DNA from: Flavobacteria bacterium GWA2_35_26
GTDB lineage: Bacteria; Bacteroidota; Bacteroidia; Flavobacteriales; Flavobacteriaceae
Assembly: GCA_001800905.1 (NCBI GenBank)
Contig: MGWH01000005.1
Coordinates: 56,303-120,302, forward strand
DNA length: 64,000 bases
Reading direction: 5' to 3'
In this document: piece by piece, positions 15,331 through 28,922 of the stretch
Layout: each line of letters starts with the position of its first letter
Numbering within the stretch: the stretch's first letter is position 1
The notes under the pieces: generated by a model
Told to the model about the DNA's origin: nothing
What the model saw: only the letters and a program-made list of their open reading frames with translations
Databases searched by the model: none
Translations under genes and position numbers: made by a program

Positions 15331-15343
15331 CGTTTTTAAATAT

Positions 15344-15365
15344 TTATGGGCTAATTATGGGCTAA
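15344..15365. repeat. Perfect tandem 11-bp direct repeat (TTATGGGCTAA x2)
   Basis: 15344-15354 and 15355-15365, 14-35 nt upstream of the 437-aa gene. Confidence 0.85.
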
Positions 15366-15457
15366 ATATACATTTTTTGCGATTTATATTTGTTATGTAT
15401 TTTAATTTATTGTTTTGAAAATTAGGAATCTTGTAATTCCCTTTAATTGGAAAAGAT

Positions 15458-15847
15458 ATGTTGTTTAATAATAGTATAGACCGAATCCAGGTAGTCGAAA
15501 CAGAATTGTTGATTAATGTTAATTTAATTAATCAAAAAAAAATCCCTTTGGAAGAGATTAAAAAAGTATTTGTTTCAGTAAAGAAAATTCCTGTAATCTA
15601 TGAAATTGTATATATACTTATGGGCGGAATTTTTATTGGATTAAATTTTAGTTTTTATCCAATTGGATTCTATTTTTGGTTGGTTTCTGGAATCTATTTG
15701 TTGGGAGAATTTATCGTACATAATTATAAAAGTTGTACTTTAAACGTAGAACTTCAAAATGAAAAAGTACAGATTCGTTTCATACCCTATGAACTTAAAT
15801 ACCAATTAGTTCATAAGATTAACGAAATTAAATTTAGAATTAGGTAA
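15458..15847 (+). CDS. Hypothetical membrane protein (two TM segments)
   Basis: 129-aa ORF with a central hydrophobic hairpin; TATATTTG -7 element at 15385-15392. Confidence 0.55.
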   Translation: MLFNNSIDRIQVVETELLINVNLINQKKIPLEEIKKVFVSVKKIPVIYEIVYILMGGIFIGLNFSFYPIGFYFWLVSGIYLLGEFIVHNYKSCTLNVELQNEKVQIRFIPYELKYQLVHKINEIKFRIR

Positions 15848-15867
15848 TGGGATTTGAATAGTGATTT

Positions 15868-16548
15868 CTATTCAGCCATTTTCTTTAGTTTGCCAATTTC
15901 TTTGAGCGTAATCTTTTTACCAGTCAATTCGATTAACCCCAATTTATTAAAATCAGAAAGTAAACGAATACAACTTTCGGTTGCTGTACCAATCATACTG
16001 GCTAATTCTTCTCTTGACAATTGCACTTTCAAACTGTTATCTTCATTTTTTCCAAAGGTGTCTGCCAAATATAATAGAGTCTCGGCTAAACGTTCTTTTA
16101 CCGTTTTTTGTGCCATATTTACCGAATGAAGATCGGCTTCTTTTAAGTCACCACAAATCGTTTTCATGACATTCATAGAAAACTGATTGTTTTTGTCAAA
16201 AAATCCCATGATTTCTGTTTTTGGAATGAAGCATACTTCCATATCTTCTAAAGCAACGGCACTTAAGTTGACCGGTTCATCGCTTATGATGGAACGTTGT
16301 CCTAACAATTCTCCCTTGGAAATTAATTTTACAATATGATCTTTACCATTAGCACTTAATTTGGACATTTTGCAAACGCCATCTTTTATACAGTAAATGC
16401 CATTAATGGTGTCTCCTTCTTCAAAGATCATCTCACCTTTTTTGATGGTGTACGACTCTTTGCAGTCAGAAAGATGTAGAAGTTCTTCTTTGTTTAGTGC
16501 TTTCAAAGAGCTGAATTCTCTAACGATACATTGTTCACATTTACTCAT
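15868..16548 (-). CDS. Crp/Fnr-family transcriptional regulator (Fnr-like, N-terminal CxxC)
   Basis: MSKCEQC N-terminus, cNMP-type beta-roll, HTH SREELASMIGTATESCIRLL; adjacent to cco genes. Start 16548 preferred because a TAAATTTG -7 element (16576-16583) overlaps the track start. Confidence 0.9.
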   Translation of the reverse strand: MSKCEQCIVREFSSLKALNKEELLHLSDCKESYTIKKGEMIFEEGDTINGIYCIKDGVCKMSKLSANGKDHIVKLISKGELLGQRSIISDEPVNLSAVALEDMEVCFIPKTEIMGFFDKNNQFSMNVMKTICGDLKEADLHSVNMAQKTVKERLAETLLYLADTFGKNEDNSLKVQLSREELASMIGTATESCIRLLSDFNKLGLIELTGKKITLKEIGKLKKMAE

Positions 16549-16592
16549 ACTACCAATTGGGACTTTATTGAAAAACAAATTTAGTGATTATT

Positions 16593-16606
16593 ATGACAAA
16601 TGTCAT
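16593..16606. promoter_or_regulatory. Candidate Fnr-type box 1 (ATGAC-N4-GTCAT) between the regulator and ccoI
   Basis: ATGACAAATGTCAT palindrome; 22 nt from AACCTTTG (-7-like, 16629-16636). Confidence 0.75.
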
Positions 16607-16660
16607 ATTTTAAGTTGTAACTATTGGTAACCTTTGTCACAGGTAAATTGAGCAAAGAGT

Positions 16661-19039
16661 ATGGATACAAAAAACTGTTTCCATTGTGGTTTGGATATTG
16701 TAGAAAAAGAAGAGATTATTTTTGATGACAAATCATTTTGTTGCACGGGTTGTATGACCGTCTACGAAATATTTAGTCTCAACGATATGACTTGTTACTA
16801 TGATTTTGAAAAATCACCTGGAGCAACTCCGCAAGATATTAATGGTAAATATGATTTCTTAGATAATGAAAGTATTGTGTCAAAATTGTTGGATTTCGAA
16901 GAAAATGCAACCGCTATTGTTTCACTTAGCATTCCTCATATACATTGTAGTTCATGTATTTGGATTTTGGAAAATTTACAACGTCTTAAAAAGGGAATAA
17001 GTACGTCTCAAGTTAATTTTCCTGAGAAAAAAGTCCGTATTACCTTCCATCCAGCAGAAGTTTCTTTAAAAGAGATTGTCTATTTATTGAGTGGTATTGG
17101 GTACGAACCTTATATAAGTTTGGAAAATTATGAAGCGGGTTCAAATACTGTTGATAGAAGTTTAACCTACAAATTAGGTGTAGCGTTTTTTTGTTTCGGT
17201 AACATTATGTTACTTTCTTTTCCAGAATATTTTGAAGTCAAAGAATATTGGTTGGATCAATACCGCGGCTTTTTCCGTTGGTTGATTTTTGCCTTATCCT
17301 TACCAAGTTTTTTCTATTCTGCTAGCGGTTATTATGTTTCGGCCTACAAAAGCATCAGATCCAAAATGCTTAATATCGATATTCCAATTGCCTTGGGAAT
17401 TATTGTGATGTTTGTGCGAAGTACCGTTGATATTGTAATGGACTATGGATCGGGTTTTTTTGATAGTTTAACCGGATTGGTTTTCTTCATGCTTTTAGGA
17501 AAAATGTTCCAAATCAAAACCTATAGTTTTTTAAGCTTTGAGCGTGATTTCAAATCCTATTTTCCAATTGCAATTACGCGTATCCAAGGAAATCTGGAAG
17601 AAAGTGTTCCCATTTATGATATCCAAAAAGGAGATCGATTGTTGATTCGAAATCAAGAATTAATTCCGGTAGATGGAATTTTGATTACCGAAACGGCTGA
17701 TATTGATTATAGTTTTGTAACCGGAGAAGCGATTCCAATTACTAAAAAATCAGGCGATAAAGTATTTGCAGGAGGGAAGCAGATAGGAAAAATGATTGAA
17801 ATGGAAGTCTTGTATTCGGTATCCCAAAGTTATTTGACGCAACTATGGAGCAACGATGTTTTTCAAAAAAATGTGGAGCAAAAACACAAAACCATTACCG
17901 ATCAGATTTCGCGTTATTTTACCCCTATTTTACTTTTAATTGCATTTTTGAGTTTTGGCTATTGGATTTTGAAAGATACCAATACCGCATTTAATGTGTT
18001 TACTGCCGTATTAATTGTTGCCTGTCCATGTGCTTTAGCATTGACCGCCCCTTTTACTTTTGGTAATATTTTACGAATATTGGGCAAGAAAAAATTCTAT
18101 CTTAAAAACGCTTTGGTTATTGAACAATTAGCTAAAGTAGATACAATCGTGTTTGACAAAACAGGAACCATTACGACCAATAAAAAATCCAATATTGCAT
18201 TTCAGGGAAATTCACTATCAGAAGCTGATCTTGTTTTAATTAAAAATGTACTTCGCGCTTCCAATCATCCTTTGAGCCGAATGTTGTATGATTTTTTACC
18301 AGAAACTCAGAAACTGAAATTGGATCATTTTGCAGAAATAACTGGTAAAGGGATTCAGGCAACTCTAAACGGAACAACGATTCAATTGGGTTCGGCTTCG
18401 TTTGTAGGTGCCAATGAAGAAAATGCTATCCAACAAACTTCGGTTCATATCACAATCAATGAAAATTATATTGGGAAATATGTCTTTAACAATCAATATA
18501 GAGAAGGCTTGTCTTCCCTTTTTGCACATTTAAGTCAAGGGTACCAACTAAAAATTTTATCGGGTGATAATGAAGGTGAACAAAAAGCTTTGGAACAATT
18601 ATTACCACCGGGCACCGAATTGATTTTCAATCAGAAACCAGAACAGAAATTAGAGTTTATTAAAAACTTACAAGAAAAAGGCCAAAATGTAATGATGGTA
18701 GGTGATGGGCTAAATGATGCTGGCGCTTTGGCTCAAAGTAATGTTGGGATTTCTATTGCAGAAAATGTTAATGTTTTTTCACCGGCTTGCGATGCTATTT
18801 TGGATGCTAATGTTTTTGATCAACTGGATTCATTTATGGCACTTTCAAAAAAAGCAATCACGACAATTAAAATGAGTTTTACAGTCTCTTTGTTGTACAA
18901 TGTGGTTGGGCTATCCTTTGCAATTACGGGTAATTTATTGCCTTTAGTGGCAGCGATAATTATGCCTTTGAGTACGATTACAATTGTCAGTTTTGTAACT
19001 GTAATGAGTAATTATTATTCCAGAAGAAGATTGCAATAA
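16661..19039 (+). CDS. ccoI: Heavy-metal (Cu) P1B-type ATPase for cbb3 assembly, CcoI/FixI
   Basis: N-terminal CFHCG/FCCTGC, HMA HCSSC, TGE, CPC, DKTGT, HPL, GDGLND, YN and MPLS membrane motifs. Confidence 0.93.
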   Translation: MDTKNCFHCGLDIVEKEEIIFDDKSFCCTGCMTVYEIFSLNDMTCYYDFEKSPGATPQDINGKYDFLDNESIVSKLLDFEENATAIVSLSIPHIHCSSCIWILENLQRLKKGISTSQVNFPEKKVRITFHPAEVSLKEIVYLLSGIGYEPYISLENYEAGSNTVDRSLTYKLGVAFFCFGNIMLLSFPEYFEVKEYWLDQYRGFFRWLIFALSLPSFFYSASGYYVSAYKSIRSKMLNIDIPIALGIIVMFVRSTVDIVMDYGSGFFDSLTGLVFFMLLGKMFQIKTYSFLSFERDFKSYFPIAITRIQGNLEESVPIYDIQKGDRLLIRNQELIPVDGILITETADIDYSFVTGEAIPITKKSGDKVFAGGKQIGKMIEMEVLYSVSQSYLTQLWSNDVFQKNVEQKHKTITDQISRYFTPILLLIAFLSFGYWILKDTNTAFNVFTAVLIVACPCALALTAPFTFGNILRILGKKKFYLKNALVIEQLAKVDTIVFDKTGTITTNKKSNIAFQGNSLSEADLVLIKNVLRASNHPLSRMLYDFLPETQKLKLDHFAEITGKGIQATLNGTTIQLGSASFVGANEENAIQQTSVHITINENYIGKYVFNNQYREGLSSLFAHLSQGYQLKILSGDNEGEQKALEQLLPPGTELIFNQKPEQKLEFIKNLQEKGQNVMMVGDGLNDAGALAQSNVGISIAENVNVFSPACDAILDANVFDQLDSFMALSKKAITTIKMSFTVSLLYNVVGLSFAITGNLLPLVAAIIMPLSTITIVSFVTVMSNYYSRRRLQ

Positions 19040-19068
19040 TTGTGTATTTGTTATGTATTTACTACGGC

Positions 19069-19082
19069 ATGACAAATGTCAT
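19069..19082. promoter_or_regulatory. Candidate Fnr-type box 2 upstream of ccoS-NO-Q-P
   Basis: ATGACAAATGTCAT, identical to box 1 (19-nt identity including ATTTT); 22 nt from TAATTTTG (19105-19112). Confidence 0.8.
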
Positions 19083-19130
19083 ATTTTTTGAGAATCACGA
19101 GTCTTAATTTTGTTAACATAAATGTAAGTT

Positions 19131-19322
19131 ATGAGTGTAATTTATTTATTGATCTCCATTAGTATCCTTGTCGCCATTGGGTTTTTTATTGCTTTTATAC
19201 GAGCAGTTAAAACGGGACAATACGACGATGATTACACGCCATCAGTGCGAATGCTTTTTGACGACGAGCTTAGAATAACCCCAAATAAATCAGTACAAAC
19301 AACAGAAGAAAAACAAATTTAA
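19131..19322 (+). CDS. ccoS: cbb3-type cytochrome oxidase maturation protein CcoS/FixS
   Basis: One N-terminal TM then GQYDD...RMLFDD. Confidence 0.9.
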   Translation: MSVIYLLISISILVAIGFFIAFIRAVKTGQYDDDYTPSVRMLFDDELRITPNKSVQTTEEKQI

Positions 19323-19324
19323 TT

Positions 19325-21502
19325 ATGGAAATGCAACAATTTTATTACGACAACAAAATTGTAAAGAAATTCATTTACGCCACCATTGTTTTTGGTGTTG
19401 TAGGAATGTTAGTTGGCCTTATTTTGGCTTTTATGTTTCTTTTTCCAAACGTTACCGACGGTATCTCGTGGTTGAGTTTTGGTAGATTGAGACCTTTACA
19501 TACGAATGCGGTTATTTTTGCTTTTGTGGGTAATGCCATGTTTGCTGGGGTTTATTATTCATTACAACGATTGTTAAAGGCAAGAATGTTTAGTGATTTT
19601 TTGAGTAACTTAAACTTTTGGGGTTGGCAATTAATTATTGTTGCGGCTGCCATTTCTTTACCTTTAGGATATAGTACTTCAAAAGAATATGCCGAATTAG
19701 AATGGCCAATTGATATTGCCATTGCTTTGATTTGGGTTGCTTTTGGTATCAACATGATTGGAACAATTATTAAAAGAAGAGAGCGTCATTTGTATGTTGC
19801 CATTTGGTTTTATTTGGCCACATTTGTTACAGTAGCGGTCTTACACATCTTTAATAGTTTAGAGTTGCCCATTTCGGCTTTAAAAAGTTACTCTGTTTAT
19901 GCCGGGGTACAAGATGCCTTAGTGCAATGGTGGTACGGCCACAATGCAGTAGCTTTCTTTTTGACGACACCTTTCTTAGGTTTGATGTATTACTTTGTAC
20001 CTAAAGCAGCCAATCGTCCAGTGTATTCATACCGACTTTCAATTGTTCACTTTTGGTCTTTAATTTTTATCTATATCTGGGCAGGACCGCATCACTTATT
20101 GTATTCGGCTTTACCTACATGGGCGCAAAACTTAGGAGTTGTGTTCTCCGTAATGTTAATTGCTCCTTCTTGGGGAGGGATGATCAACGGATTGTTAACC
20201 TTAAGAGGAGTTTGGGACAAAGTACGTGTAGAACCTGTATTGAAATTTTTCGTAGTAGCCATTACTGGTTATGGGATGGCCACTTTTGAAGGACCTATGT
20301 TGTCACTAAAAAATGTAAATGCTATAGCACATTATACGGATTGGATTATTGCTCACGTACACGTTGGTGCTCTGGCTTGGAATGGTTTCATGGCCTTTGG
20401 TATGATCTATTGGTTGATTCCAAGAATGACAAAAACACCTTTGTATTCTACTAAATTGGCTAATTTCCATTTTTGGATTGGAACTTTAGGAATTATATTA
20501 TATGCTCTTCCTATGTATGTTGCCGGTTTCTTACAAGCGTCTATGTGGAAACAGTTTAATCCTGATGGTACTTTAACCTATGGTAACTTCCTAGAAACAG
20601 TGACTCAAATTATGCCAATGTATTTAATGAGAGCAGTTGGAGGTACCATGTATCTTACCGGAATGTTAGTGTTAGTATATAACATCATTCAAACGGTAAG
20701 AGTAGGGCAATCTATCGAAGATGAATTGGCCGAAGCTCCGGAGTTACAACCCATCAGTAGCGGAAGATTGAAAGGTGAAAAATTCCACCCTTGGTTGGAA
20801 CGAAAACCGATTCAGTTGACCATTTTGGCTACCGTTGCGATTTTAATTGGAGGGATTATTCAAATCGTTCCAACGATTATGGTAAAATCAAATATTCCAA
20901 CTATTACAAGTGTAAAACCCTATTCTCCATTGGAGTTAGAAGGTCGTGATTTATACATTCGCGAAGGATGTGTGGGTTGTCACTCTCAATCTGTTAGACC
21001 TTTCCGTAGTGAGGTAGAACGTTATGGACCGCAATCTAAAGCAGGTGAGTTTGTTTACGATCATCCATTCCTTTGGGGTTCAAAACGTACAGGTCCCGAT
21101 TTGTTACGAGTAGGTGGGAAGTACAATGACAACTGGCATTTCAATCACTTTTGGAACCCACAAAGTATTTCAGCAGGTTCAATAATGCCAGGTTATAAAT
21201 GGTTGTTTGCCAATGAACCAATGGATATTTCATTAACTCAAAAGAAAATGGAAGCCATGGTAACACTTGGGGTTCCTTATACAAAAGAACAAGTTACCAA
21301 TGCGCAAAAAGATTTAAGAGCCCAAGCAATTAAAATTGAAGAAAGCTTGAAGAACGATCCTGACTTTGTAAAAAGTTATGAAGAAAGCAAGAAAAAAGCA
21401 GCAGCCAAAGGAGAAAAATTCGTACCGATGAACGAAAGAGAAATCATTGCTTTGATTGCGTATATGCAACGACTAGGAACAGATATTAAAGTTAAAAAAT
21501 AA
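19325..21502 (+). CDS. ccoN: cbb3-type cytochrome c oxidase fused subunits I/II (CcoN-CcoO)
   Basis: RLRPLHTNAVIF, WWYGHNAV, GPHHLLY, HVHVGAL; C-terminal GCVGCHSQ heme c motif and WGSKRTGPDL. Confidence 0.97.
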   Translation: MEMQQFYYDNKIVKKFIYATIVFGVVGMLVGLILAFMFLFPNVTDGISWLSFGRLRPLHTNAVIFAFVGNAMFAGVYYSLQRLLKARMFSDFLSNLNFWGWQLIIVAAAISLPLGYSTSKEYAELEWPIDIAIALIWVAFGINMIGTIIKRRERHLYVAIWFYLATFVTVAVLHIFNSLELPISALKSYSVYAGVQDALVQWWYGHNAVAFFLTTPFLGLMYYFVPKAANRPVYSYRLSIVHFWSLIFIYIWAGPHHLLYSALPTWAQNLGVVFSVMLIAPSWGGMINGLLTLRGVWDKVRVEPVLKFFVVAITGYGMATFEGPMLSLKNVNAIAHYTDWIIAHVHVGALAWNGFMAFGMIYWLIPRMTKTPLYSTKLANFHFWIGTLGIILYALPMYVAGFLQASMWKQFNPDGTLTYGNFLETVTQIMPMYLMRAVGGTMYLTGMLVLVYNIIQTVRVGQSIEDELAEAPELQPISSGRLKGEKFHPWLERKPIQLTILATVAILIGGIIQIVPTIMVKSNIPTITSVKPYSPLELEGRDLYIREGCVGCHSQSVRPFRSEVERYGPQSKAGEFVYDHPFLWGSKRTGPDLLRVGGKYNDNWHFNHFWNPQSISAGSIMPGYKWLFANEPMDISLTQKKMEAMVTLGVPYTKEQVTNAQKDLRAQAIKIEESLKNDPDFVKSYEESKKKAAAKGEKFVPMNEREIIALIAYMQRLGTDIKVKK

Positions 21503-21511
21503 ATAGAAATT

Positions 21512-21691
21512 ATGTTTGAACAAATAAAACACAATATGGAAACTATCGCTGGAGTTGCGATCTATCCCATTCTATCGTTATTAATTTTCTTTTTATTCTT
21601 TGTTGGATTGGCACTCTGGGTATTCTCGTATAAAAAAGAAAAAATAGAGGAGTTGAGCCAGATTCCATTGAAAGACAATCCTACATTATAA
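21512..21691 (+). CDS. ccoQ: cbb3-type oxidase subunit CcoQ (59 aa, missing from the ORF track)
   Basis: Manual translation MFEQIKHNMETIAGVAIYPILSLLIFFLFFVGLALWVFSYKKEKIEELSQIPLKDNPTL; single TM, C-terminal S.IPL motif; lies between ccoO and ccoP. Confidence 0.9.
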   Translation: MFEQIKHNMETIAGVAIYPILSLLIFFLFFVGLALWVFSYKKEKIEELSQIPLKDNPTL

Positions 21692-21708
21692 TTTTAAAAC
21701 TGCTTAAA

Positions 21709-22608
21709 ATGAAAAAATTAATCCCTGTATATGTAAGAGTTCCGATTATATTCTTCGCTGTTTTTGGCGCTATGGAATTTTTTATTGACTCTGGCGACCG
21801 ACCTGCTTTTCTTAAGTTTCCGATGGTCTCTGTTTTCTTATTTGTTTTTCTGTTTCTATTGATTGCAATAGAAATTACTGTTAGTGCTATCGATAAAATT
21901 ACCTATCAATTATTGACTGAGGAACAGAAAGCAAAGTTGGAAGAAGTGTCACAAATAAGTTTCAAAGAAAGCCAATGGTATACTAAACTGGTAAAAGCAT
22001 TGACGAAGTCTGAACCAATTGAAAATGAAGGACAACTTTTATTGGATCACGATTATGACGGAATCAAAGAATTAGATAATAATTTACCACCTTGGTGGAT
22101 TTATTTATTCTATGCTTGTATTGCTTTCGCAGCGATTTATTTGGTTCGTTTTGAAATCATGGGAGCTGATGACCAAGAGATGGAATTGAAAAAAGAAATG
22201 GCACAAGCCAAAATTGAAGTGGCCGAGTACATGAAAACGGCTCCTGATTTAATGGATGAAAAAACGGTGACTTTGTTAACGGATGCTCCTTCATTAGCGG
22301 AAGGTAAAACCATATTTACAACCAATTGTGCAGCTTGTCACAGAGCTGATGCTGGTGGGCAAATTGGACCTAACTTAACAGATGACCTGTGGATTTTAGG
22401 TGGAGGAATCAAAAATATTTTCCATACTCTTGTCAATGGCGGAAGAGATGGAAAAGGGATGATTTCTTGGAAAGGAACTTTAAAACCAAAAGAAATGCAA
22501 AAAGTGGCTAGTTATATTATTTCTTTGAAAGGAAGTAATCCTAAAGATCCAAAAGCTCCAGAAGGAGAAGTTTGGGTTGAGGAAGCTACAGCAACACCTG
22601 CAAAATAA
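21709..22608 (+). CDS. ccoP: cbb3-type oxidase subunit III CcoP (single heme c)
   Basis: DHDYDGIKELDNNLPPWW, one CAACH, IGPNLTD, GMISW. Confidence 0.95.
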   Translation: MKKLIPVYVRVPIIFFAVFGAMEFFIDSGDRPAFLKFPMVSVFLFVFLFLLIAIEITVSAIDKITYQLLTEEQKAKLEEVSQISFKESQWYTKLVKALTKSEPIENEGQLLLDHDYDGIKELDNNLPPWWIYLFYACIAFAAIYLVRFEIMGADDQEMELKKEMAQAKIEVAEYMKTAPDLMDEKTVTLLTDAPSLAEGKTIFTTNCAACHRADAGGQIGPNLTDDLWILGGGIKNIFHTLVNGGRDGKGMISWKGTLKPKEMQKVASYIISLKGSNPKDPKAPEGEVWVEEATATPAK

Positions 22609-22620
22609 GCCAACTAACTA

Positions 22621-22652
22621 AAAGACCAATTTCAAATTCGAAATTGGTCTTT
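22621..22652 (+). terminator. Intra-operon hairpin/terminator between ccoP and ccoG
   Basis: Perfect 13-bp stem AAAGACCAATTTC-aaattc-GAAATTGGTCTTT followed by T. Confidence 0.65.
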
Positions 22653-22667
22653 TAAAATTACAATACC

Positions 22668-24086
22668 ATGTCAAATTTACAAGACGAATCATTTAGAGAC
22701 AGCATTGGCACCATTGATGAAACCGGGCATAGAAAATATATTTTTCCAAAGAAACCTTCCGGGAAGTTATATGAATACCGTAAAATAGTAAGTTATTTTT
22801 TATTAGCCATTTTAATTTCGAATCCATTCCTTAAAATCAATGGCAATCAATTCATGATGTTCAATGTTTTGGAACGTCGTTTTAATATTTTTGGTTTTCC
22901 ATTTTGGCCTCAAGATTTTTACTTGTTTGTTTTGTTTATGATTTTGGGAGTGGTATTCGTCATTCTCTTTACGGTTATTTTTGGGCGAATATTCTGTGGA
23001 TGGATTTGTCCGCAAACTATTTTTCTAGAAATGGTTTTCCGCCGAATAGAATATTGGATAGAGGGAGATAGAGGTGCTCAAATCCGATTAGCTAAACAAG
23101 AATGGAATGCTGAGAAAATCATAAATAAAGGATTGAAATGGTCGGTATTTTTGGTCATTTCTTTTTTCATTGCCAATGTATTTTTAGCCTATTTAATTAG
23201 TAGTGACGAACTATTTAAAATGATCGAAGACGGACCTGAAAGTCATTTAAGTACTTTGATAGCATTGTTGATTTTTACCGGAGTTTTCTATTTTGTATTC
23301 GTTTGGTTCAGGGAACAAGTGTGTATTATTGCTTGTCCTTATGGAAGATTGCAAGGGGTACTTTTGGATAACAAATCGATTAACGTAGCTTACGATTTTG
23401 TTCGTGGCGAAAAAGAATCGGGTAGAGCTAAATTAAATAAAAATGAAGATCGTGCCGCTTCTGGAAAAGGAGATTGTATTGATTGTCATCAATGTGTACA
23501 TGTTTGCCCCACTGGGATTGACATTCGAAACGGAACACAATTGGAATGTGTCAACTGTACCGCTTGTATCGATGAATGTGATTCGATTATGGAAACGGTG
23601 GGTTTACCTAAAGGATTGATTCGCTATGCTTCAGAAGACGAAATAGAAAAGAAATCCAAATTTCAGTTTACAGCCAGAATGAAAGGCTATACTGCGGTTT
23701 TGGTAATTTTAATTGGAGTTTTGACAGGACTTTTGTTTTTAAGAACCGATGTAGAAGCTTCTATTTTACGATTGCCAGGACAATTGTTCCAACACAAAGG
23801 GGACAATATTAGTAATGTATATACCTTTAAAATAATTAATAAAACGAATGACGAATTTAAAGATATTCACTTCAAATTGGTTGGAATTAAAGGAACATTA
23901 AATGTAGTAGGACATCAGGATTTTAAAGTACCAAAACAAGGGATGAATAGCGGGACTTTGTTTATTGAAATCAATCAGTTTTTATTGGAAACCGATAAAA
24001 CAAAGTTGGAAATAGAAGTCTATAACGGAAATAAAAAAATTGAAACTGCAACGACTAATTTTCTTAGTCCAAGAAGTTTCGATTAA
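22668..24086 (+). CDS. ccoG: Cytochrome c oxidase accessory protein CcoG/FixG (4Fe-4S, cupric reductase-like)
   Basis: GRIFCGWICPQT, CIIACPYGR, CIDCHQCVHVCPTGIDIR, CVNCTACIDEC. Confidence 0.96.
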   Translation: MSNLQDESFRDSIGTIDETGHRKYIFPKKPSGKLYEYRKIVSYFLLAILISNPFLKINGNQFMMFNVLERRFNIFGFPFWPQDFYLFVLFMILGVVFVILFTVIFGRIFCGWICPQTIFLEMVFRRIEYWIEGDRGAQIRLAKQEWNAEKIINKGLKWSVFLVISFFIANVFLAYLISSDELFKMIEDGPESHLSTLIALLIFTGVFYFVFVWFREQVCIIACPYGRLQGVLLDNKSINVAYDFVRGEKESGRAKLNKNEDRAASGKGDCIDCHQCVHVCPTGIDIRNGTQLECVNCTACIDECDSIMETVGLPKGLIRYASEDEIEKKSKFQFTARMKGYTAVLVILIGVLTGLLFLRTDVEASILRLPGQLFQHKGDNISNVYTFKIINKTNDEFKDIHFKLVGIKGTLNVVGHQDFKVPKQGMNSGTLFIEINQFLLETDKTKLEIEVYNGNKKIETATTNFLSPRSFD

Positions 24087-24101
24087 TTAAATAAATAGTA
24101 T

Positions 24102-24557
24102 ATGAAAATTAAATTCAATTGGGGAACAGGTATAGTAATAGCATTTGGCTTATTCATGACCTTCATTTTGTATTTTGTTGTTGAGGTGCAATCCAATTCC
24201 AAATACGATAATGATTTGGTAGTAGACGAATACTATAAACACGATGCCCGTTTTGGTGAAGAAATGAAACGTACCCAAAATGCGCAGGATTTGGGCGAAA
24301 AACCAAAGGTAGTAGTAACCCAAAGTGGAGTTCAAATCATTTTTCCTTCCGCTTTTGTACCTAATAAAATTAAAGGAATAGTATCCCTCTATAGGCCATC
24401 TAACAAGAAATTAGATTTTGAAATTCCGATTTCAATTTCTGAACCAACTTTGCTCATACCTAATAAAAGTTTGGTAGGTGGCCGCTGGGATATTAATATG
24501 GAATGGCAATACGATGGCAAATCGTATTTAACCAAAGAAACTATTTATATTCGTTAG
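24102..24557 (+). CDS. ccoH: FixH/CcoH-family protein
   Basis: NWGTGIVIAF TM, DLVVDEYY, LYRPSN; follows ccoG. Confidence 0.85.
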   Translation: MKIKFNWGTGIVIAFGLFMTFILYFVVEVQSNSKYDNDLVVDEYYKHDARFGEEMKRTQNAQDLGEKPKVVVTQSGVQIIFPSAFVPNKIKGIVSLYRPSNKKLDFEIPISISEPTLLIPNKSLVGGRWDINMEWQYDGKSYLTKETIYIR

Positions 24558-24563
24558 ACAAGT

Positions 24564-25265
24564 ATGTTGTATTCTGCTTTCATCTTTGGCTTAATTAGTA
24601 GTCTGCATTGTATAGGTATGTGCGGACCAATTGCCTTGATGATTCCCGTAGACAGAACAAATCCAACTAAAAAAGCGACTCAAATTATTACCTATCATCT
24701 GGGGAGATTATCTGCCTATGCGTGTATTGGTTTTATTTTTGGCTTAGTCGGAAAAGGTTTTTTTCTGGCTGGAATTCAACAACGATTGTCTATATTCATT
24801 GGAGTTGCCATGATTATTACGATGCTAACTCCCGAAAGAGTTTTGGCTAATTATAATTTTTCAAAACCTGTTTATCGTCTGATTTCTAAAATTAAATCGT
24901 CTTTAGGAAAGCAATTTAAAAACAAAAGTTATAAATCCTTATTTACTATTGGACTCCTCAATGGTTTCTTGCCATGTGGAATGGTCTATGTAGCGTTATT
25001 TGGCGCTATTGCTATGCAAAATGTTCCTTTTGGAATTCTGTATATGCTACTTTTTGGTATTGGAACCATTCCAATGATGAGTAGTGTTACGTATTTGAAT
25101 TCGATAATGACAGTTTCATTTCGAAACAAAATTCAAAAATTGATTCCTTATGTAGGAGTTGTTATCGGTGTTTTGTTTATTCTACGCGGATTAGGATTGG
25201 GTATCCCATACGTTTCACCAGCCAATATGAGTTTGTTTGTTCAAGAAACACCCAACTGTCATTAG
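24564..25265 (+). CDS. DsbD_2/TauE-like membrane protein of cco loci
   Basis: SLHCIGMCGP and GFLPCGMVY motifs; six TM segments. Confidence 0.8.
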   Translation: MLYSAFIFGLISSLHCIGMCGPIALMIPVDRTNPTKKATQIITYHLGRLSAYACIGFIFGLVGKGFFLAGIQQRLSIFIGVAMIITMLTPERVLANYNFSKPVYRLISKIKSSLGKQFKNKSYKSLFTIGLLNGFLPCGMVYVALFGAIAMQNVPFGILYMLLFGIGTIPMMSSVTYLNSIMTVSFRNKIQKLIPYVGVVIGVLFILRGLGLGIPYVSPANMSLFVQETPNCH

Positions 25266-25268
25266 CAA

Positions 25269-26633
25269 TTAAACGGTCATAGAAAACAAAGCTGTGTCGG
25301 GCGCTTTTCGTTTTAGTAGTAAGTCAAAAGCCATACAAATATTGCGAACAAATGGTTTGCCATCTTCAGTAACTTGTATCCCGTTGGGAATGAAATGAAT
25401 CAAGCCATCTTTTTCCATTTCTTTTAATTGTACCATAACTTCCGGAATTTCTTTGAAGTAGTACTTTGATTCTGTCCATGAAGTTTCAAATTGGCACATT
25501 AAATTCAAAATATGTCTTCGAATGATTAAATCTTCCTCCGTCAAAAGATGACCTCTAATAACAGGAATAGTATTCGCATCCAATAGTTGGTAATACTCTT
25601 CAATCGATTTTACATTTTGAGCAAAACTGTACCAACTGTCACTAATAGAAGATACTCCTAAGCCAATCATCAATTGTGTTTTTGAAGAACTATATCCCAT
25701 AAAATTTCGGTGTAATTTACCTATTTCAAAGGATTCAAATAAACTATCGGTTGTTAAGGCAAAGTGATCCATCCCAATTTCGTGATAGTCATTTTTGTAT
25801 AATAGCTCTTTGCCCGTTTCATATAATTCTCGTTTGGCGGCATCTTTGGGAATGTCCTCGTCATTAAATCCGCGCTGACCATTTCCTTTGATCCAAGGCA
25901 CGTGGGCGTAACTATAAAAAGCCAATCGATCGGGTTGTAATGATTTGGTTTTTTCAATAGTATCAATTACATCTTCTTTTTCTTGAAACGGCAAGCCAAA
26001 AATAATATCGTGACCGATTGAGGTATATCCAATCTCTCTGGCCCATAAAGTAACTTTGGCCACATTGATAAAAGGTTGAATACGATGAATGGCCTTTTGA
26101 ACTTTTTCAGAATAATCTTGAACACCAAAACTCACACGTCTAAATCCTAGATCGTATAGTTTTTGCAACTGCTCACGAGTCGTATTATTGGGATGTCCTT
26201 CAAAACTAAATTCATGTCCTTCAGCTTTATCGGCTTTGGCAAAAATTCCGTGGATCAGGGCTTCTAAATTTTCAGAAGAGAAGAATGTAGGGGTTCCGCC
26301 ACCCAAATGAATTTCCTTAATTTTGGGTCTCTCGCCCAAAAGGGTGCAATACAATTCCCATTCTTTCAGTACGGCTTGAATGTAAGGATGTTCTACTTCG
26401 TGATTCTTGGTAATTCGTTTATTACAGCCACAAAAAGTGCACATGCTTTCGCAAAAGGGTAGATGGACGTACAAACTGATTCCTTCCGAAATATTGCTTT
26501 CTATAAATGATTTTTTAAGAGTAGCTAACCAAATTTCATAGGAAAAATCAAGTTCATTCCAATAGGGCACCGTTGGATAACTGGTGTATCTTGGCCCTGG
26601 AACATTGTATTTTTGGATTAGCGAATGAGTCAT
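25269..26633 (-). CDS. hemN: Oxygen-independent coproporphyrinogen III oxidase (radical SAM)
   Basis: PGPRYTSYPT, HLPFCESMCTFCGC (CxxxCxxC), HLGGGTP, IGMDHFA, LHRNFMGY. Confidence 0.96.
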   Translation of the reverse strand: MTHSLIQKYNVPGPRYTSYPTVPYWNELDFSYEIWLATLKKSFIESNISEGISLYVHLPFCESMCTFCGCNKRITKNHEVEHPYIQAVLKEWELYCTLLGERPKIKEIHLGGGTPTFFSSENLEALIHGIFAKADKAEGHEFSFEGHPNNTTREQLQKLYDLGFRRVSFGVQDYSEKVQKAIHRIQPFINVAKVTLWAREIGYTSIGHDIIFGLPFQEKEDVIDTIEKTKSLQPDRLAFYSYAHVPWIKGNGQRGFNDEDIPKDAAKRELYETGKELLYKNDYHEIGMDHFALTTDSLFESFEIGKLHRNFMGYSSSKTQLMIGLGVSSISDSWYSFAQNVKSIEEYYQLLDANTIPVIRGHLLTEEDLIIRRHILNLMCQFETSWTESKYYFKEIPEVMVQLKEMEKDGLIHFIPNGIQVTEDGKPFVRNICMAFDLLLKRKAPDTALFSMTV

Positions 26634-26683
26634 AACAAAATCATTTGAATGATCAAAAGTAAGTCCGCTTTACACCAATTAAA

Positions 26684-26697
26684 ATGATATTTATCAT
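26684..26697. promoter_or_regulatory. Candidate Fnr-type box 3 upstream of hemN
   Basis: ATGATATTTATCAT (ATGAT-N4-ATCAT); 22 nt from minus-strand TACTTTTG (26654-26661). Confidence 0.75.
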
Positions 26698-26719
26698 CCC
26701 TTCAATTTATTGCATAAAA

Positions 26720-26748
26720 AAAACCTCAATCTTTCGAATTGAGGTTTT
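26720..26748 (-). terminator. Terminator after the DUF349 gene
   Basis: AAAACCTCAAT-ctttcga-ATTGAGGTTTT (11-bp stem) with an A run on the left (U tract on the minus strand). Confidence 0.75.
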
Positions 26749-26765
26749 GTAGGGAGTTTAGTAAA

Positions 26766-28709
26766 CTATTCTTGTTTCAAATTGCGCAATTGCTTCAATT
26801 TTTCTTTCCAAACTTCTAAACTTTCTTTGTGTATAGAGATGTTTTTTCGAACTTCTAACACAATTGAATTTTCTTTTTTAGCGTTTTTAGTATTGGTAAA
26901 AAATTGAATGTTATTTTCTAATTGGAAAATTTCGTTTTGAACTTCTTCAATTTTACGAATTAAGAATATTTTCTCGTTTTCTAATTTTCTTGAATCATTA
27001 CTTTCAGACAATTGATCCATACGATTTGCAAAACGCATCATGTCGGAATCTTTTTTACTTAAGCTTAACTTTTCAAAAAGGGCATCCAATATTTTGTTGA
27101 ACTTTCCTTCGATGTGACGTCTAGCAAAAGGAACTTTACCAAACGCTTTCCAGTTTTGGATATGCAATTTGATTCCGTCTAAATCCGTTTTGTGATCACC
27201 TACTAATTGGAAGGCGCGTAGGGTTTCCAAATAGGCCTTTTTGTTTTCAAAAGCAGCTACTTCTTCGCTATTGTCTTCATTTTTTTGCTCCTTTAATTGG
27301 TCAAAATAATGATTACAAGCTTCTCTGAATTCTTTCCAAATACTATCAGAATATTTTCTTGGAACGTGACCAATTTTCTTCCATTCCTCCTGAATTTGTT
27401 TCATGATTGGAGTAGAAGTAGCAAAATCAGTACTTGTTTGTAATTCTTTGGCTTTAGCCACCAAAGCTTGTTTTTTACTCAAGTTCTCGTTCTGGTCTTT
27501 CTTGATATCTTTATAAAACGAATTCTTAAACGAATTGAAATTACGAACAGCTGTTTTAAAGGCAGCCCATGTTGCTTCATTGACTTCAGTGGGAACTTTT
27601 CCTGCTGCAAAAAAAGCGGCTCTCAAAGCTTCTACTTTTTCTATTTGTACTAACCATTGTGTATGAGCGTTAACCTTTTCAGTGGCTAATACTTCAATTT
27701 GAGCAATGATTTCTTGTTTTTTAGCCAAGTTATCTACTTCGGCACCTTTTAGTTTTTCAAATAACAATTCACGTTTGTCGTGCATTTGTTTGGTTAAATC
27801 GCTAAATCGATTCCAGATTTCTTCGCGGTGTTCTCTAGAAACAGGTCCAATTTCTTCTTTCCAAATGCGGTGTAAATCTTGCAATTCACGAAATGCTTTG
27901 TTGATGTCTTCTTCTTGAACTAATTCTTCTACACGAGCTACAATTTTTTGTTTTTGCTCTAAATTGTGTTTAAAATCAATATCTCTTGCCTCACGGTCTA
28001 GATGCAAATAATCGTAGAAATTTTCAACATGAAAATGATAATTGTTCCAAACGTGGTTGTATTTGTCTTTTGGAATTGGCCCCGCATTTTTCCAACGTTC
28101 TCTTAATTCATTAAAATGCTTTAAGATGTCTTTGATGTTGGCCTGCGGATTAATTAATTCTTTTAACTCTTCCACAATGGCTAAACGATTTTCTAAATTG
28201 TTTTTTAGACTCGTTTGTAAGCTTTTGAAGTGTTCGTTTTTATGGTTTCTGTAAACAGAATAAATGGTGTCAAATTTGGATTTTAATGGGAAATGGTACT
28301 GAAAATCTTCATTTGGATCTTGATTTTCAGCAAGAAATTCTTCTTTTTTTTCCTCAATCAGGTGGTTGTATTTGGCTAAAAAGGCTTTTTTAATTTCTTC
28401 TACATGCTCTTTTATCGATGCTACTTTTTCGTTGGAGACCAAAGTATTTAATTCTTCAACTAGAGATTCCATCGATAAGGCGTCATAGTCTTGCATCGGA
28501 ATATCGTGGCGTTCTTTTACACTTTCATCTTCACTTTCTTCGGCATTACTATCGGCAATCGCCTCAATGATAGTCTGATTTTCATCTATTTCAGCAGATG
28601 CTACTGCAGTTAATTCAACTTCATTCGGTGAAGTTGTTGGTGTTGATTCTACTGAATCTGTCGTGTTTCCGTCTGCATGTTGCAGGTTATCATTCTTTTC
28701 TTCTAACAT
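26766..28709 (-). CDS. DUF349 domain-containing protein
   Basis: Repeated W..IGPV...(S/W).F units: WKNAGPIP, WKEEIGPV, WKKIGHVP, WKAFGKVP. Confidence 0.85.
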   Translation of the reverse strand: MLEEKNDNLQHADGNTTDSVESTPTTSPNEVELTAVASAEIDENQTIIEAIADSNAEESEDESVKERHDIPMQDYDALSMESLVEELNTLVSNEKVASIKEHVEEIKKAFLAKYNHLIEEKKEEFLAENQDPNEDFQYHFPLKSKFDTIYSVYRNHKNEHFKSLQTSLKNNLENRLAIVEELKELINPQANIKDILKHFNELRERWKNAGPIPKDKYNHVWNNYHFHVENFYDYLHLDREARDIDFKHNLEQKQKIVARVEELVQEEDINKAFRELQDLHRIWKEEIGPVSREHREEIWNRFSDLTKQMHDKRELLFEKLKGAEVDNLAKKQEIIAQIEVLATEKVNAHTQWLVQIEKVEALRAAFFAAGKVPTEVNEATWAAFKTAVRNFNSFKNSFYKDIKKDQNENLSKKQALVAKAKELQTSTDFATSTPIMKQIQEEWKKIGHVPRKYSDSIWKEFREACNHYFDQLKEQKNEDNSEEVAAFENKKAYLETLRAFQLVGDHKTDLDGIKLHIQNWKAFGKVPFARRHIEGKFNKILDALFEKLSLSKKDSDMMRFANRMDQLSESNDSRKLENEKIFLIRKIEEVQNEIFQLENNIQFFTNTKNAKKENSIVLEVRKNISIHKESLEVWKEKLKQLRNLKQE

Positions 28710-28922
28710 TTTTTCAATGTATAAGGTTGCTAATTATTCAAGTCGAAAGATAGTAAACCCCAATTGAATAGCAAAATAAATCCCTTATTTATCATCGTTT
28801 TACGTTAAAAATGAGGTGATTTAAGTTTATTATTTTGGATGGTTAAAACCTATAAAGTAAAAGAATTGAGATCTTATGGAATTTAGCAAAGGCTTCAAAA
28901 GTTTTGCAGAATGGGTCGTACA

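What the first reader, a model, noticed from the sequence alone, without database searches (positions are those of the whole stretch)
16593..26697. Three Fnr-like palindromes (ATGAY-N4-RTCAT), each exactly 22 nt from a -7 element
Seen: ATGACAAATGTCAT at 16593 (ccoI) and 19069 (ccoS-NO-Q-P), and ATGATAAATATCAT on the minus strand at 26684-26697 (hemN); in all three the gap to the TAnnTTTG-type element is 22 nt. Box 1 is also 9 nt from the regulator's own -7 element, a position suited to autorepression. Established: E. coli FNR binds TTGAT-N4-ATCAA. Inference: a Bacteroidota Fnr consensus and fixed activation geometry, usable to predict the microaerobic regulon.
Basis: partly seen in the sequence, partly recalled or inferred. 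Interest (0 to 1): 0.62.

Follow-up and report, generated by a model that had tools for sequence, protein, structure and literature searches.

The report
FNR-like low-oxygen switch in Flavobacterium
Three copies of a 14-base palindrome sit at one fixed distance upstream of the promoters for the high-affinity (cbb3) oxidase, its copper pump and oxygen-independent haem synthesis, next to an FNR-like regulator gene; this is very probably the low-oxygen gene switch of flavobacteria, built like the E. coli FNR switch, and I found no description of it for this phylum.

Summary
ATGAY-N4-RTCAT occurs three times in the window (0.5 expected), each time 22 nt from an nAnnTTTG -7 box. The own genome holds a fourth such site, before a 41-aa membrane peptide gene.

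Conservation:
- The ccoS site keeps box + exactly 22 nt + TAnnTTTG in 74 of 74 Flavobacterium loci, with a variable spacer.
- The ccoI site keeps 22 nt in 71 of 79 loci.
- Across 41 genus genomes, gap 22 gives 120 hits, gap 21 gives 9, gap 23 gives 32, and reversed-pattern controls give 0 to 1.

Boxes, the adjacent Crp/Fnr regulator and cbb3 are present or absent together (14 of 14 genomes; phylum-wide Fisher 5e-23).

Published F. psychrophilum data place TAnnTTTG at -12..-5. They also map a transcription start for a hypoxia-cluster gene whose box lies at -48..-35. The box centre is therefore -41.5, the classic class II position.

The regulator keeps equivalents of FNR Cys20, Cys23 and Cys122 but not Cys29. 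Its recognition helix reads E--IR, not E--SR. It scores below NCBIfam's FNR cut-off.

It works like FNR, but strict FNR membership is not shown. No binding or sensing experiment exists.

The parts
15868..16548 (-). Crp/Fnr-family regulator, 226 aa from the ATG at 16548 (MSKCEQC...). It has Cys4, Cys7, Cys53 and Cys106 and the recognition helix GTATESCIRLL.
   Evidence: Pfam cNMP_binding + HTH_Crp_2. Best NCBIfam hit is FNR NF008365 at 87.5 bits against a cut-off of 228. PDB FNR 5E44/9QLT E~1e-17 to 1e-18. 79-94% identical orthologues in 80 Flavobacterium loci.
16576..16583 (-). -7 box of the regulator's own promoter (TAAATTTG), 9 nt from box 1. Predicted TSS is near 16571.
   Evidence: A -7 box lies 8-12 nt from the box in 79 of 79 loci (9 nt in 47, 10 nt in 21).
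16593..16606 (.). Box 1, ATGACAAATGTCAT, shared by the divergent regulator and ccoI promoters.
   Evidence: Present in 79 of 80 Flavobacterium loci.
16629..16636 (+). ccoI -7 box AACCTTTG (weak, no T at the first position), 22 nt after box 1. Predicted TSS is near 16641.
   Evidence: The gap is 22 nt in 71 of 79 loci, 23 in 5 and 21 in 2.
16641..16657 (+). Conserved ccoI leader AGGTAAATTGAGCAAAG. Function unknown.
   Evidence: Conserved at nucleotide level in most loci without a fixed reading frame. No Rfam match.
16661..19039 (+). ccoI/fixI, a copper-translocating P-type ATPase for cbb3 maturation.
   Evidence: NCBIfam TIGR01525/TIGR01511.
19069..19082 (.). Box 2, ATGACAAATGTCAT, 30 nt after the ccoI stop.
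   Evidence: Present in 74 of 74 loci.
19105..19112 (+). ccoS operon -7 box TAATTTTG, 22 nt after box 2. Predicted TSS is near 19117.
   Evidence: The gap is exactly 22 nt in 74 of 74 loci.
19131..25265 (+). ccoS - ccoNO (fused) - ccoQ - ccoP - ccoG - ccoH(FixH) - DsbD_2 operon.
   Evidence: NCBIfam TIGR00847, NF011053, TIGR00782, TIGR02745. Pfam FixS, FixQ, FixH, DsbD_2.
25269..26633 (-). hemN, oxygen-independent coproporphyrinogen III oxidase.
   Evidence: TIGR00538, 417.8 bits against a cut-off of 325.
26654..26661 (-). hemN -7 box TACTTTTG, 22 nt after box 3. Predicted TSS is near 26649.
   Evidence: Paired convergent ccoS/hemN-type hits 7.6-12 kb apart in about 20 genus genomes. hemN confirmed behind such a site in G022.
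26684..26697 (.). Box 3, ATGATAAATATCAT as read on the minus strand.

Best explanation
The 14-bp palindromes (extended consensus T-ATGAY-AWWT-RTCAT-A) are operator sites for a dimer of the adjacent Crp/Fnr-family regulator (15868-16548, minus strand).

At ccoI, at the ccoS-NO-Q-P-G-H operon, at hemN and at a 41-aa peptide gene elsewhere in the genome, the site ends 22 nt before the sigma-A -7 box. Its centre is therefore 29.5 bp from the first T of TAnnTTTG. With that box at -12..-5, the site spans -48..-35 and is centred at -41.5.

This is the class II position of E. coli FNR and CRP. The site replaces the -33 TTG element, and the bound dimer would recruit or activate RNA polymerase directly.

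The same site 1 lies at about -35..-22 of the regulator's own promoter. Occupancy there, or polymerase bound at ccoI 45 bp away, should shut the regulator gene off, giving negative autoregulation.

The signal is most likely oxygen shortage, sensed through a Cys-ligated Fe-S cluster (Cys4, Cys7 and Cys106 plus a fourth ligand, probably Cys53).

Shown: sequence, spacing, conservation, co-occurrence, and the TSS position and hypoxia induction in a congener.

Inferred: binding by this protein, activation, autorepression, and the nature of the sensor.

Rough odds: this regulator binding the sites and activating from about -41.5, 0.85. Low O2 as the physiological signal, 0.75. An O2-labile Fe-S cluster as the sensor, 0.55.
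For: 1. Non-random occurrence in the window and genome.

2. Phylogenetic footprint.
- ccoS: box + exactly 22 nt + TAnnTTTG in 74 of 74 loci with a divergent spacer.
- ccoI: box in 79 of 80 loci, gap 22 in 71 of 79.
- Peptide gene: 19 of 21 orthologues.

3. Spacing specificity in 41 genus genomes: gap 22 = 120 hits, gap 21 = 9, gap 23 = 32, reversed controls 0/0/1.

4. Link to the regulator.
- Adjacency is conserved across the family.
- Eight genus genomes without boxes all lack the regulator orthologue and a true ccoN. Six with boxes have both.
- In 301 genomes of the phylum, 33 of 54 regulator-positive genomes have at least 2 hits, against 7 of 247 regulator-negative ones; Fisher 5e-23.
- The own genome has only one other, very distant Crp-like gene.

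5. Geometry relative to the TSS.
- PMC9723704 places TAnnTTTG at -12..-5.
- Its Table S2 maps TSS T_0050 for a cytochrome c551/c552 gene with ATGATATTTATCAT at -48..-35, a 22-nt gap and TACTTTTG at -12..-5.

6. Physiology.
- In F. psychrophilum that gene, the cbb3 operon and hemN form one co-expression cluster induced by O2 limitation.
- In relatives, box+22 sites precede nirK-cytochrome c, ScdA/RIC, an Rrf2 regulator, peptidase U32 and hemN. In the own genome feoAB has a box at gap 21.

7. Promoter and protein features.
- The promoters lack the -33 TTG that ordinary promoters of this genome show at -35..-33.
- The protein aligns to FNR with Cys20/23/122 equivalents conserved. Its recognition helix, GTATE[ST]xIRLL, is invariant across the phylum.
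Against: - No binding, footprint, mutant or expression data exist for this organism.
- TSSs in this genome are predicted, not mapped. Across F. psychrophilum promoters the TSS sits 3-5 nt after the -7 box, so -41.5 is the modal value, not an exact one. A second mapped example gives -39.5.
- The FNR Cys29 equivalent is missing (Ser13).
- The NCBIfam FNR model scores 87.5 bits against a cut-off of 228.
- Cys53 is absent from 18 of 132 diverse homologues that keep the other three Cys.
- In F. psychrophilum the cbb3 cluster is also strongly induced by the iron chelator 2,2'-dipyridyl. That is not what a holo-active Fe-S activator of the E. coli type predicts.
- The ccoI -7 box is weak here.
- The feoAB site has a 21-nt gap.
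Confidence: 0.8

Rival explanations
1. The sites, the regulator and the class II geometry are as described, but the protein does not sense O2 through an O2-labile [4Fe-4S] cluster. It would respond instead to a thiol/disulfide redox state, to NO, to haem or to iron/cluster loss, with low oxygen acting only indirectly.
For: - Only three of the four FNR ligand positions are kept.
- It scores below the FNR family cut-off.
- In F. psychrophilum the cbb3/hemN cluster is also induced by 2,2'-dipyridyl.
- In relatives the regulon includes NO-related genes: nirK, ScdA/RIC and an Rrf2/NsrR-like regulator.
- Characterised Crp/Fnr proteins of the phylum (HcpR, PgRsp of P. gingivalis) are haem-binding.
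Against: - Cys4, Cys7 and Cys106 are nearly invariant across the phylum and align with FNR cluster ligands.
- One homologue lost Cys4, Cys7 and Cys53 together.
- The core regulon (cbb3, ccoI, hemN) is the classic FNR/FixK low-O2 set and is induced by O2 limitation.
- Chelator effects can be indirect.
Confidence: 0.2
2. The palindromes are bound by another factor, such as the distant Crp-like paralogue or a response-regulator/Crp fusion of the kind noted in marine flavobacteria. The adjacent regulator would then be only a co-located target.
For: - The own genome has a second Crp-like gene with an FNR-type E--SR helix at C2:426596-427111.
- Earlier scan notes report RR-Crp fusions next to similar boxes in other flavobacteria (not checked here).
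Against: - The paralogue is very distant (E=0.05).
- Genus genomes that keep only such paralogues (E 1e-13 to 1e-18) have no boxes at all.
- Box counts track the adjacent regulator across 301 genomes.
- Divergent adjacency with a shared box is conserved in 79 of 80 loci.
Confidence: 0.05
3. The palindromes are chance AT-rich inverted repeats or part of the core promoter or a UP-like element, with no dedicated regulator.
For: - The genome is AT-rich.
- The bare 14-mer pattern occurs at the chance rate genome-wide (19 hits).
Against: - Composite-pattern controls give about 0 hits against 4 here and 120 in 41 genus genomes.
- The box is conserved while the flanks and spacer vary.
- The box is absent from hundreds of ordinary sigma-A promoters of the genome.
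- Boxes are lost together with the regulator.
Confidence: 0.01

Closest known systems
FNR of Escherichia coli / Aliivibrio fischeri (PDB 5E44, 5CVR, 9QLT) and class II FNR promoters
   Same: - Crp/Fnr fold.
- An N-terminal CxxC plus a beta-roll Cys aligned with Cys20, Cys23 and Cys122.
- Glu and Arg of the recognition helix are kept.
- A 14-bp site with a TGA-N6-TCA core.
- The site ends 22 nt before the first T of the downstream promoter element, so its centre is at -41.5.
- Targets include hemN, feoAB and high-affinity oxidase functions (own knowledge for E. coli).
- Negative autoregulation.
   Different: - The Cys29 equivalent is absent. Another invariant Cys (Cys53, beta-strand 3) is the likely fourth ligand.
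- The helix reads E--IR, not E--SR.
- The outer base of the half-site is A, not T (ATGAY against TTGAT).
- It works with Bacteroidota sigma-A (-7 TAnnTTTG / -33 TTG) rather than -10/-35.
- It scores 87.5 bits against the 228-bit cut-off of NCBIfam FNR.
- The autoregulatory site lies at about -28.5 rather than overlapping the TSS.
FixK2 / FnrN / ANR / FnrL control of ccoNOQP(fixNOQP)-ccoGHIS and hemN in Proteobacteria
   Same: The core regulon is the same: the cbb3 oxidase, its assembly genes ccoGHIS and hemN behind TTGA-N6-TCAA-type boxes (own knowledge; papers listed).
   Different: - Different phylum and promoter architecture.
- No FixLJ cascade is visible here.
- FixK2 lacks the Fe-S Cys motif, whereas this protein has a CxxC.
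- ccoI is a separate, divergently controlled unit here.
Crp/Fnr proteins characterised in Bacteroidota: HcpR, PgRsp and CrpPg of Porphyromonas gingivalis; structure 2GAU
   Same: Same superfamily and phylum. 2GAU is the best PDB sequence match (E 5.5e-30 over residues 17-225).
   Different: - HcpR and PgRsp are described as haem-binding and NO/redox-linked.
- The 2GAU match begins at query residue 17, so it does not cover the N-terminal CxxC.
- They come from an anaerobe without cbb3 oxidase (own knowledge).
- No ATGAY-N4-RTCAT/-41.5 regulon is described for them.

Membership tests
Crp/Fnr superfamily | N-terminal cNMP-binding-type beta-roll plus C-terminal Crp-type helix-turn-helix | tested here: met
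   PF00027 (1e-20), PF13545 (6.7e-17) and PF00325. 62 PDB Crp/Fnr hits.
FNR sensu stricto (O2-sensing [4Fe-4S] subgroup; NCBIfam NF008365) | Whole-protein score above the curated family cut-off | tested here: not met
   87.5 bits against a cut-off of 228.
FNR sensu stricto | Four cluster ligands Cys20, Cys23, Cys29 and Cys122 (C-X2-C-X5-C ... C) | tested here: not met
   Cys4, Cys7 and Cys106 align with Cys20, Cys23 and Cys122. The Cys29 position is Ser13.

Across the phylum, Cys4/7/53/106 are conserved in 28-30 of 30 sequences. All four are present in 89 of 132 diverse homologues.
FNR sensu stricto | E--SR DNA-recognition motif and a TTGAT-N4-ATCAA site | tested here: not met
   The helix reads TATESCIRLL, which is E--IR, and this is invariant in the lineage. 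The site is ATGAY-N4-RTCAT. The TGA-N6-TCA core is shared but the outer base differs.
FNR sensu stricto | O2-labile Fe-S cluster controlling dimerisation and DNA binding | not testable with these tools
   Needs anaerobic purification and spectroscopy.
Class II (overlapping -35) activator-dependent promoter | Activator site centred near -41.5, abutting or replacing the upstream promoter element, at fixed helical phase | tested here: met
   - The 22-nt gap is invariant.
- TAnnTTTG lies at -12..-5.
- A mapped TSS in a congener puts a box at -48..-35.
- There is no TTG at -35..-33.
- TSSs in this genome itself are not mapped.
Class II activator-dependent promoter | Transcription depends on the bound activator | not testable with these tools
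   Needs a regulator mutant or in vitro transcription. The only indirect support is hypoxic induction in F. psychrophilum.

The most novel reading that the evidence does not exclude
This is a Bacteroidota-specific FNR lineage whose sensor is rewired. The fourth cluster ligand would come from beta-strand 3 of the beta-roll (Cys53) instead of the N-terminal arm.

Its switching logic may also differ from E. coli FNR. Induction of the regulon by an iron chelator in F. psychrophilum would fit activity of a cluster-free or differently metallated form.

In addition, the conserved 41-aa single-pass peptide under its control could be an unrecognised small subunit or assembly factor of the flavobacterial cbb3 oxidase.
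Probability: 0.2. Interest if true: 0.7.

Novelty: new variant of a known kind. Interest (0 to 1): 0.5.

Why it matters
**Regulatory knowledge.** Flavobacteria are major degraders in fresh water, sea and soil and include fish pathogens, yet their transcription factors are almost uncharted. In seven full-text searches I found no paper describing an FNR-type regulon or motif for this phylum.

**Prediction.** The rule 'T-ATGAY-AWWT-RTCAT-A, 22 nt, TAnnTTTG' has near-zero background. It allows the low-oxygen or denitrification regulon of any flavobacterial genome or MAG to be read from sequence. Examples found here are nirK, RIC, peptidase U32, feoAB and small peptides.

**Mechanism.** The -41.5 class II architecture survives with the unusual Bacteroidota sigma-A and its -7/-33 promoters. 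This gives a defined system for asking how activators contact that polymerase.

**Sensor chemistry.** The altered Cys set gives a defined variant for Fe-S sensor studies.

Tried and rejected
- **Bare palindrome as a regulon predictor.** Rejected. Its 19 genome-wide hits are at chance level and mostly lie in coding sequence. Only the composite with the -7 box is specific.
- **Common orientation of the asymmetric centre (AAAT) at all four own sites.** Not general. hemN-type sites in relatives carry ATTT or AATT, and ccoS orthologues may simply inherit it.
- **G315, a genome of another class with 22 hits, as proof of phylum-wide use.** Rejected as clean evidence. Many hits are copies of one repeated element.
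- **Gap-23 hits.** Many share a different look (ATGATTnnAnTCATAAAA...), so they were not counted as the same system.
- **Other own-genome candidates.** C4:26195 (CTGATTTTTATCAT, gap 23, before a PaaE-like reductase gene) and C5:153151 (ATGACTCATCTCAT) are left as unsupported. C1:204047 lies behind a terminator and is judged chance.
- **TSS rows for ccoS, ccoI and hemN of F. psychrophilum.** Not in the stored part of Table S2.
- **Rfam scan of 15000-29000.** Nothing relevant.
- **Pfam for the 41-aa peptide.** No family.
- **Whether 2GAU is PgRsp.** Could not be settled.
- **Structure prediction.** Not run, because the tool returns no coordinates, so Cys-Cys distances could not be measured.

Full report
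**1. Observation**

| Box | Sequence and position | Gap | -7 box | Gene start |
|---|---|---|---|---|
| 1 | ATGACAAATGTCAT, 16593-16606 | 22 nt | AACCTTTG, 16629-16636 | ccoI ATG 16661 |
| 2 | ATGACAAATGTCAT, 19069-19082 | 22 nt | TAATTTTG, 19105-19112 | ccoS ATG 19131 |
| 3 | ATGATAAATATCAT, minus strand, 26697-26684 | 22 nt | TACTTTTG, minus strand, 26661-26654 | hemN ATG 26633 |

The ccoI -7 box is imperfect, with A rather than T at its first position.

On the other strand, box 1 is followed by 9 nt and TAAATTTG (16583-16576). This is the -7 box of the divergent regulator gene, whose conserved start is the ATG at 16548 (MSKCEQC...).

ATGAY-N4-RTCAT has exactly these three matches in the window. 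Shuffles give a mean of 0.50, and none of 100 shuffles reaches 3.

**2. Genes**

- The regulator is a Crp/Fnr-family protein (Pfam cNMP_binding + HTH_Crp_2).
- Its neighbours are ccoI (P-type Cu ATPase), then ccoS, fused ccoNO, ccoQ, ccoP, ccoG, ccoH (FixH) and a DsbD_2 protein.
- hemN is convergent with that operon.
- The window is C5:56303-120302 of a 2.10-Mb, 35% G+C genome.
- The closest public loci are all Flavobacterium.

**3. Beyond chance in the whole genome**

The bare palindrome occurs 19 times in 2.1 Mb, which is about chance, and mostly inside genes. The composite 'palindrome + 22 nt + nAnnTTTG' occurs four times, against 0 for the reversed-pattern control.

The fourth site is at C6:165097-165140 (ATGACAAATGTCAT, 22 nt, TATATTTG). 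It lies 21 nt before a 41-codon ORF for a single-pass membrane peptide, which is followed by a terminator.

A perfect box (ATGATAATTATCAT) also precedes feoAB, but with a 21-nt gap. The orthologous site in another genome has the same 21 nt.

**4. Conservation**

In 80 Flavobacterium loci holding the regulator (79-94% identical), synteny with ccoI, ccoS...dsbD_2 and hemN is kept.

- The regulator/ccoI intergenic box is present in 79 of 80 loci. The gap to nnnnTTTG on the ccoI side is 22 nt in 71 loci, 23 in 5 and 21 in 2.
- The gap to the regulator's own -7 box is loose: 8 nt in 9 loci, 9 in 47, 10 in 21, and 11-12 in 2.
- Upstream of ccoS, 74 of 74 loci have the box, exactly 22 nt and TAnnTTTG, while most of the spacer differs between loci.
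- The consensus extends to T-ATGAY-AWWT-RTCAT-A followed by TTTT.
- The peptide gene exists in 21 of 61 genus genomes. 19 of these have the box; 18 have a 22-nt gap and 1 has 21 nt.

**5. Spacing specificity**

Counts in 41 genus genomes with a strict TAnnTTTG:

| Gap | Hits | Reversed-pattern control |
|---|---|---|
| 22 | 120 | 0 |
| 21 | 9 | 0 |
| 23 | 32 | 1 |

Many of the gap-23 hits share a different sequence type.

About 20 genomes show the convergent ccoS/hemN pair of hits 7.6-12 kb apart, as in the window. hemN was confirmed behind such a site in a genome where it is unlinked to cco.

The tight activation-side spacing, set against the loose regulator-side spacing, is what activation versus occlusion predicts.

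**6. Link to the regulator**

- Eight genus genomes with no hit all lack an orthologue of the regulator (best hits are paralogues at E 1e-13 to 1e-18, or nothing) and lack a ccoN above the family cut-off. Six genomes with hits have both.
- In 301 genomes across the phylum, 54 have a homologue at E<=1e-30. 33 of those 54 have at least 2 composite hits, against 7 of the 247 without a homologue; Fisher 4.8e-23.
- All tested genera of the family keep the box between the regulator and ccoI.
- In another class, two genomes have ATGACAAAAATCAT + 22 nt + nAnnTTTG before a ccoI homologue.
- Most of the phylum has neither regulator nor boxes.
- The own genome holds only one other, very distant Crp-like gene.

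**7. Position relative to transcription starts**

The F. psychrophilum 5'-end RNA-seq study states that the sigma-A TAnnTTTG box lies at -12 to -5 and that the median 5'UTR is 24 nt (PMC9723704). With a 22-nt gap the 14-mer spans -48..-35, centre -41.5. That equals the distance from an E. coli class II FNR/CRP site to the -10 hexamer (own knowledge).

Table S2 of that paper lists sequences from -50 to +10.

- TSS T_0050 (SigA) reads TGAtgatatttatcat-ttttttaAGTCATAACATAGCC-TACTTTTG-AAgt-a. The box is at -48..-35, the gap is 22 nt and the -7 box is at -12..-5.
- Its gene is a cytochrome c551/c552. It belongs to co-expression cluster C52 together with the cbb3 operon and hemN, and that cluster is induced by oxygen limitation.
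- A second mapped TSS (T_0388, a PAS-sensor gene) has a box, 22 nt and a poor -7 box, with the centre at -39.5.
- TSSs vary by about 2 nt relative to the -7 box. The firm quantity is therefore the 29.5 bp from box centre to the -7 box.

In this genome, ordinary sigma-A promoters show TTG enrichment starting at -35 (29 occurrences against about 11 background). The FNR-type promoters read T-A-T there. They lack the -33 element, and the box overlaps its place.

Predicted TSSs here are near 16641 (ccoI), 19117 (ccoS), 26649 (hemN) and 16571 (regulator). These give leaders of 14-23 nt.

**8. The protein**

- It aligns over its whole length with Aliivibrio FNR (E about 1e-17 to 1e-18). Cys4, Cys7 and Cys106 fall on FNR Cys20, Cys23 and Cys122, but Ser13 sits at the Cys29 position.
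- The NCBIfam FNR model scores 87.5 bits against a cut-off of 228.
- Across 30 homologues from the phylum, Cys4, Cys7, Cys53 and Cys106 are conserved in 28-30.
- Among 132 homologues from 50%-identity clusters, all four are present in 89, and Cys53 alone is missing in 18.
- Orthologues in loci L110-L113 (67-72% identical, 4.8-5.5-Mb genomes) have no other Cys in the sensor domain. If the cluster has four Cys ligands, Cys53 is the fourth. By jelly-roll topology, Cys53 (beta-strand 3) neighbours the strand carrying Cys106. That step is inference from topology and was not measured.
- The recognition helix GTATE[ST]xIRLL is invariant. It keeps Glu and Arg of FNR's E--SR but has Ile for Ser. This parallels the change of the outer half-site base from T to A; the causal link is inference.

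**9. Regulon content**

Own genome:
- ccoI
- ccoS-NO-Q-P-G-H-dsbD_2
- hemN
- the 41-aa peptide gene
- the regulator itself
- probably feoAB

Relatives, behind box+22 sites:
- a NirK-cytochrome c fusion
- ScdA/RIC
- an Rrf2 regulator
- a U32 peptidase-family protein
- YceI proteins
- DUF465
- a second Crp/Fnr gene
- hemN

This is a coherent low-oxygen and denitrification set.

**10. Caveats**

- The sensor chemistry is open. The F. psychrophilum supplement reports that the same cluster is strongly induced by 2,2'-dipyridyl. A simple holo-active Fe-S activator does not predict that.
- The high count in one genome of another class is partly a repeated element.

**11. Literature and earlier notes**

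Seven full-text searches returned no paper that describes an FNR-type regulator or motif in Flavobacteria or Bacteroidota.

- The F. psychrophilum paper does not mention Fnr or Crp.
- A CRP/FNR meta-regulon study treated the CRP/FNR homologue of its Flavobacteriales MAG as MalR-like.
- Characterised Crp/Fnr proteins of the phylum are the P. gingivalis haem-linked HcpR and PgRsp, plus CrpPg.

Earlier AI notes of this scan describe the same arrangement in other flavobacterial genomes and read it the same way. They are not independent evidence.

**12. Verdict**

It works like FNR at class II promoters. Strict FNR membership fails three tested criteria, so I file it as a new variant of a known kind, of moderate interest.

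Noticed in passing
G000 C6:164953-165075 (minus strand; outside the window): A 41-aa single-pass membrane peptide gene (MRNLPLYSWANGSFIMIVVFGLVILALVGAVLIMMNSGKKK) lies behind ATGACAAATGTCAT + 22 nt + TATATTTG.

It is conserved in 21 of 61 genus genomes, and 19 of these have the box. It has no Pfam family. It may be a small partner of the cbb3 oxidase.
   Followed up: partly
window 16641-16657: The ccoI leader AGGTAAA(A/T)TGAGCAAAG is conserved at nucleotide level across most of 79 Flavobacterium loci. The distance and frame to the ccoI ATG vary (12 or 13 nt), so it is probably a non-coding leader element. There is no Rfam match.
   Followed up: partly
G000 C2:784250-784292, upstream of feoA/feoB (feoB at C2:784555-786657): A perfect box, ATGATAATTATCAT, lies 21 nt (not 22) before TACTTTTG upstream of feoAB. 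The same 21-nt arrangement occurs at G006:C1:446268. This is a likely extra regulon member with off-by-one spacing.
   Followed up: partly
L191, L194-L198, L200-L202 (G001, G022, G004): In larger Flavobacterium genomes, box+22 sites precede a NirK-cytochrome c fusion, ScdA/RIC, an Rrf2 regulator, a U32 peptidase-family protein, YceI proteins, DUF465 and a second Crp/Fnr gene.

The nirK spacer carries its own inverted repeat (AAAAGAC...GTCTTTT), which could be a second operator.
   Followed up: partly
genus genomes, one search list: Many gap-23 hits share another sequence type (ATGATTnnAnTCATAAAAn..GTA..TTTG). This could be a different factor's site or the start of a conserved divergent gene.
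   Followed up: no
G315 (another class), e.g. C3:3028, C9:3001, C51:143334: Identical 44-nt copies (ATGACTCAAGTCATTGTTTTCGCCTATAACGTGTATTATGTTTG) lie on several contigs. This repeated element carries a box-like promoter and inflates the hit count of that genome.

Other hits in the same genome precede a pyruvate:ferredoxin oxidoreductase-like gene and a ferredoxin-like gene; these two identities are read by eye from the N-terminal sequences.
   Followed up: partly
G000 C2:426596-427111: This is the only other Crp-like gene of the genome. It is very distant (E=0.05), but its recognition helix (SREVISRLL) carries the canonical FNR-type E--SR motif.
   Followed up: no
PMC9723704 supplement (F. psychrophilum): The hypoxia cluster C52 (cbb3, hemN, cytochrome c551/552, sRNA Rfp4) is also strongly induced by the iron chelator 2,2'-dipyridyl. 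This is unexpected for an E. coli-type holo-active Fe-S activator.
   Followed up: no
window 26698-26765: The hairpin AAACCTCAAT...ATTGAGGTTT lies between the DUF349 gene (26766-28709, minus strand) and box 3. It looks like the terminator of that gene, so hemN has its own promoter directly after it.
   Followed up: no
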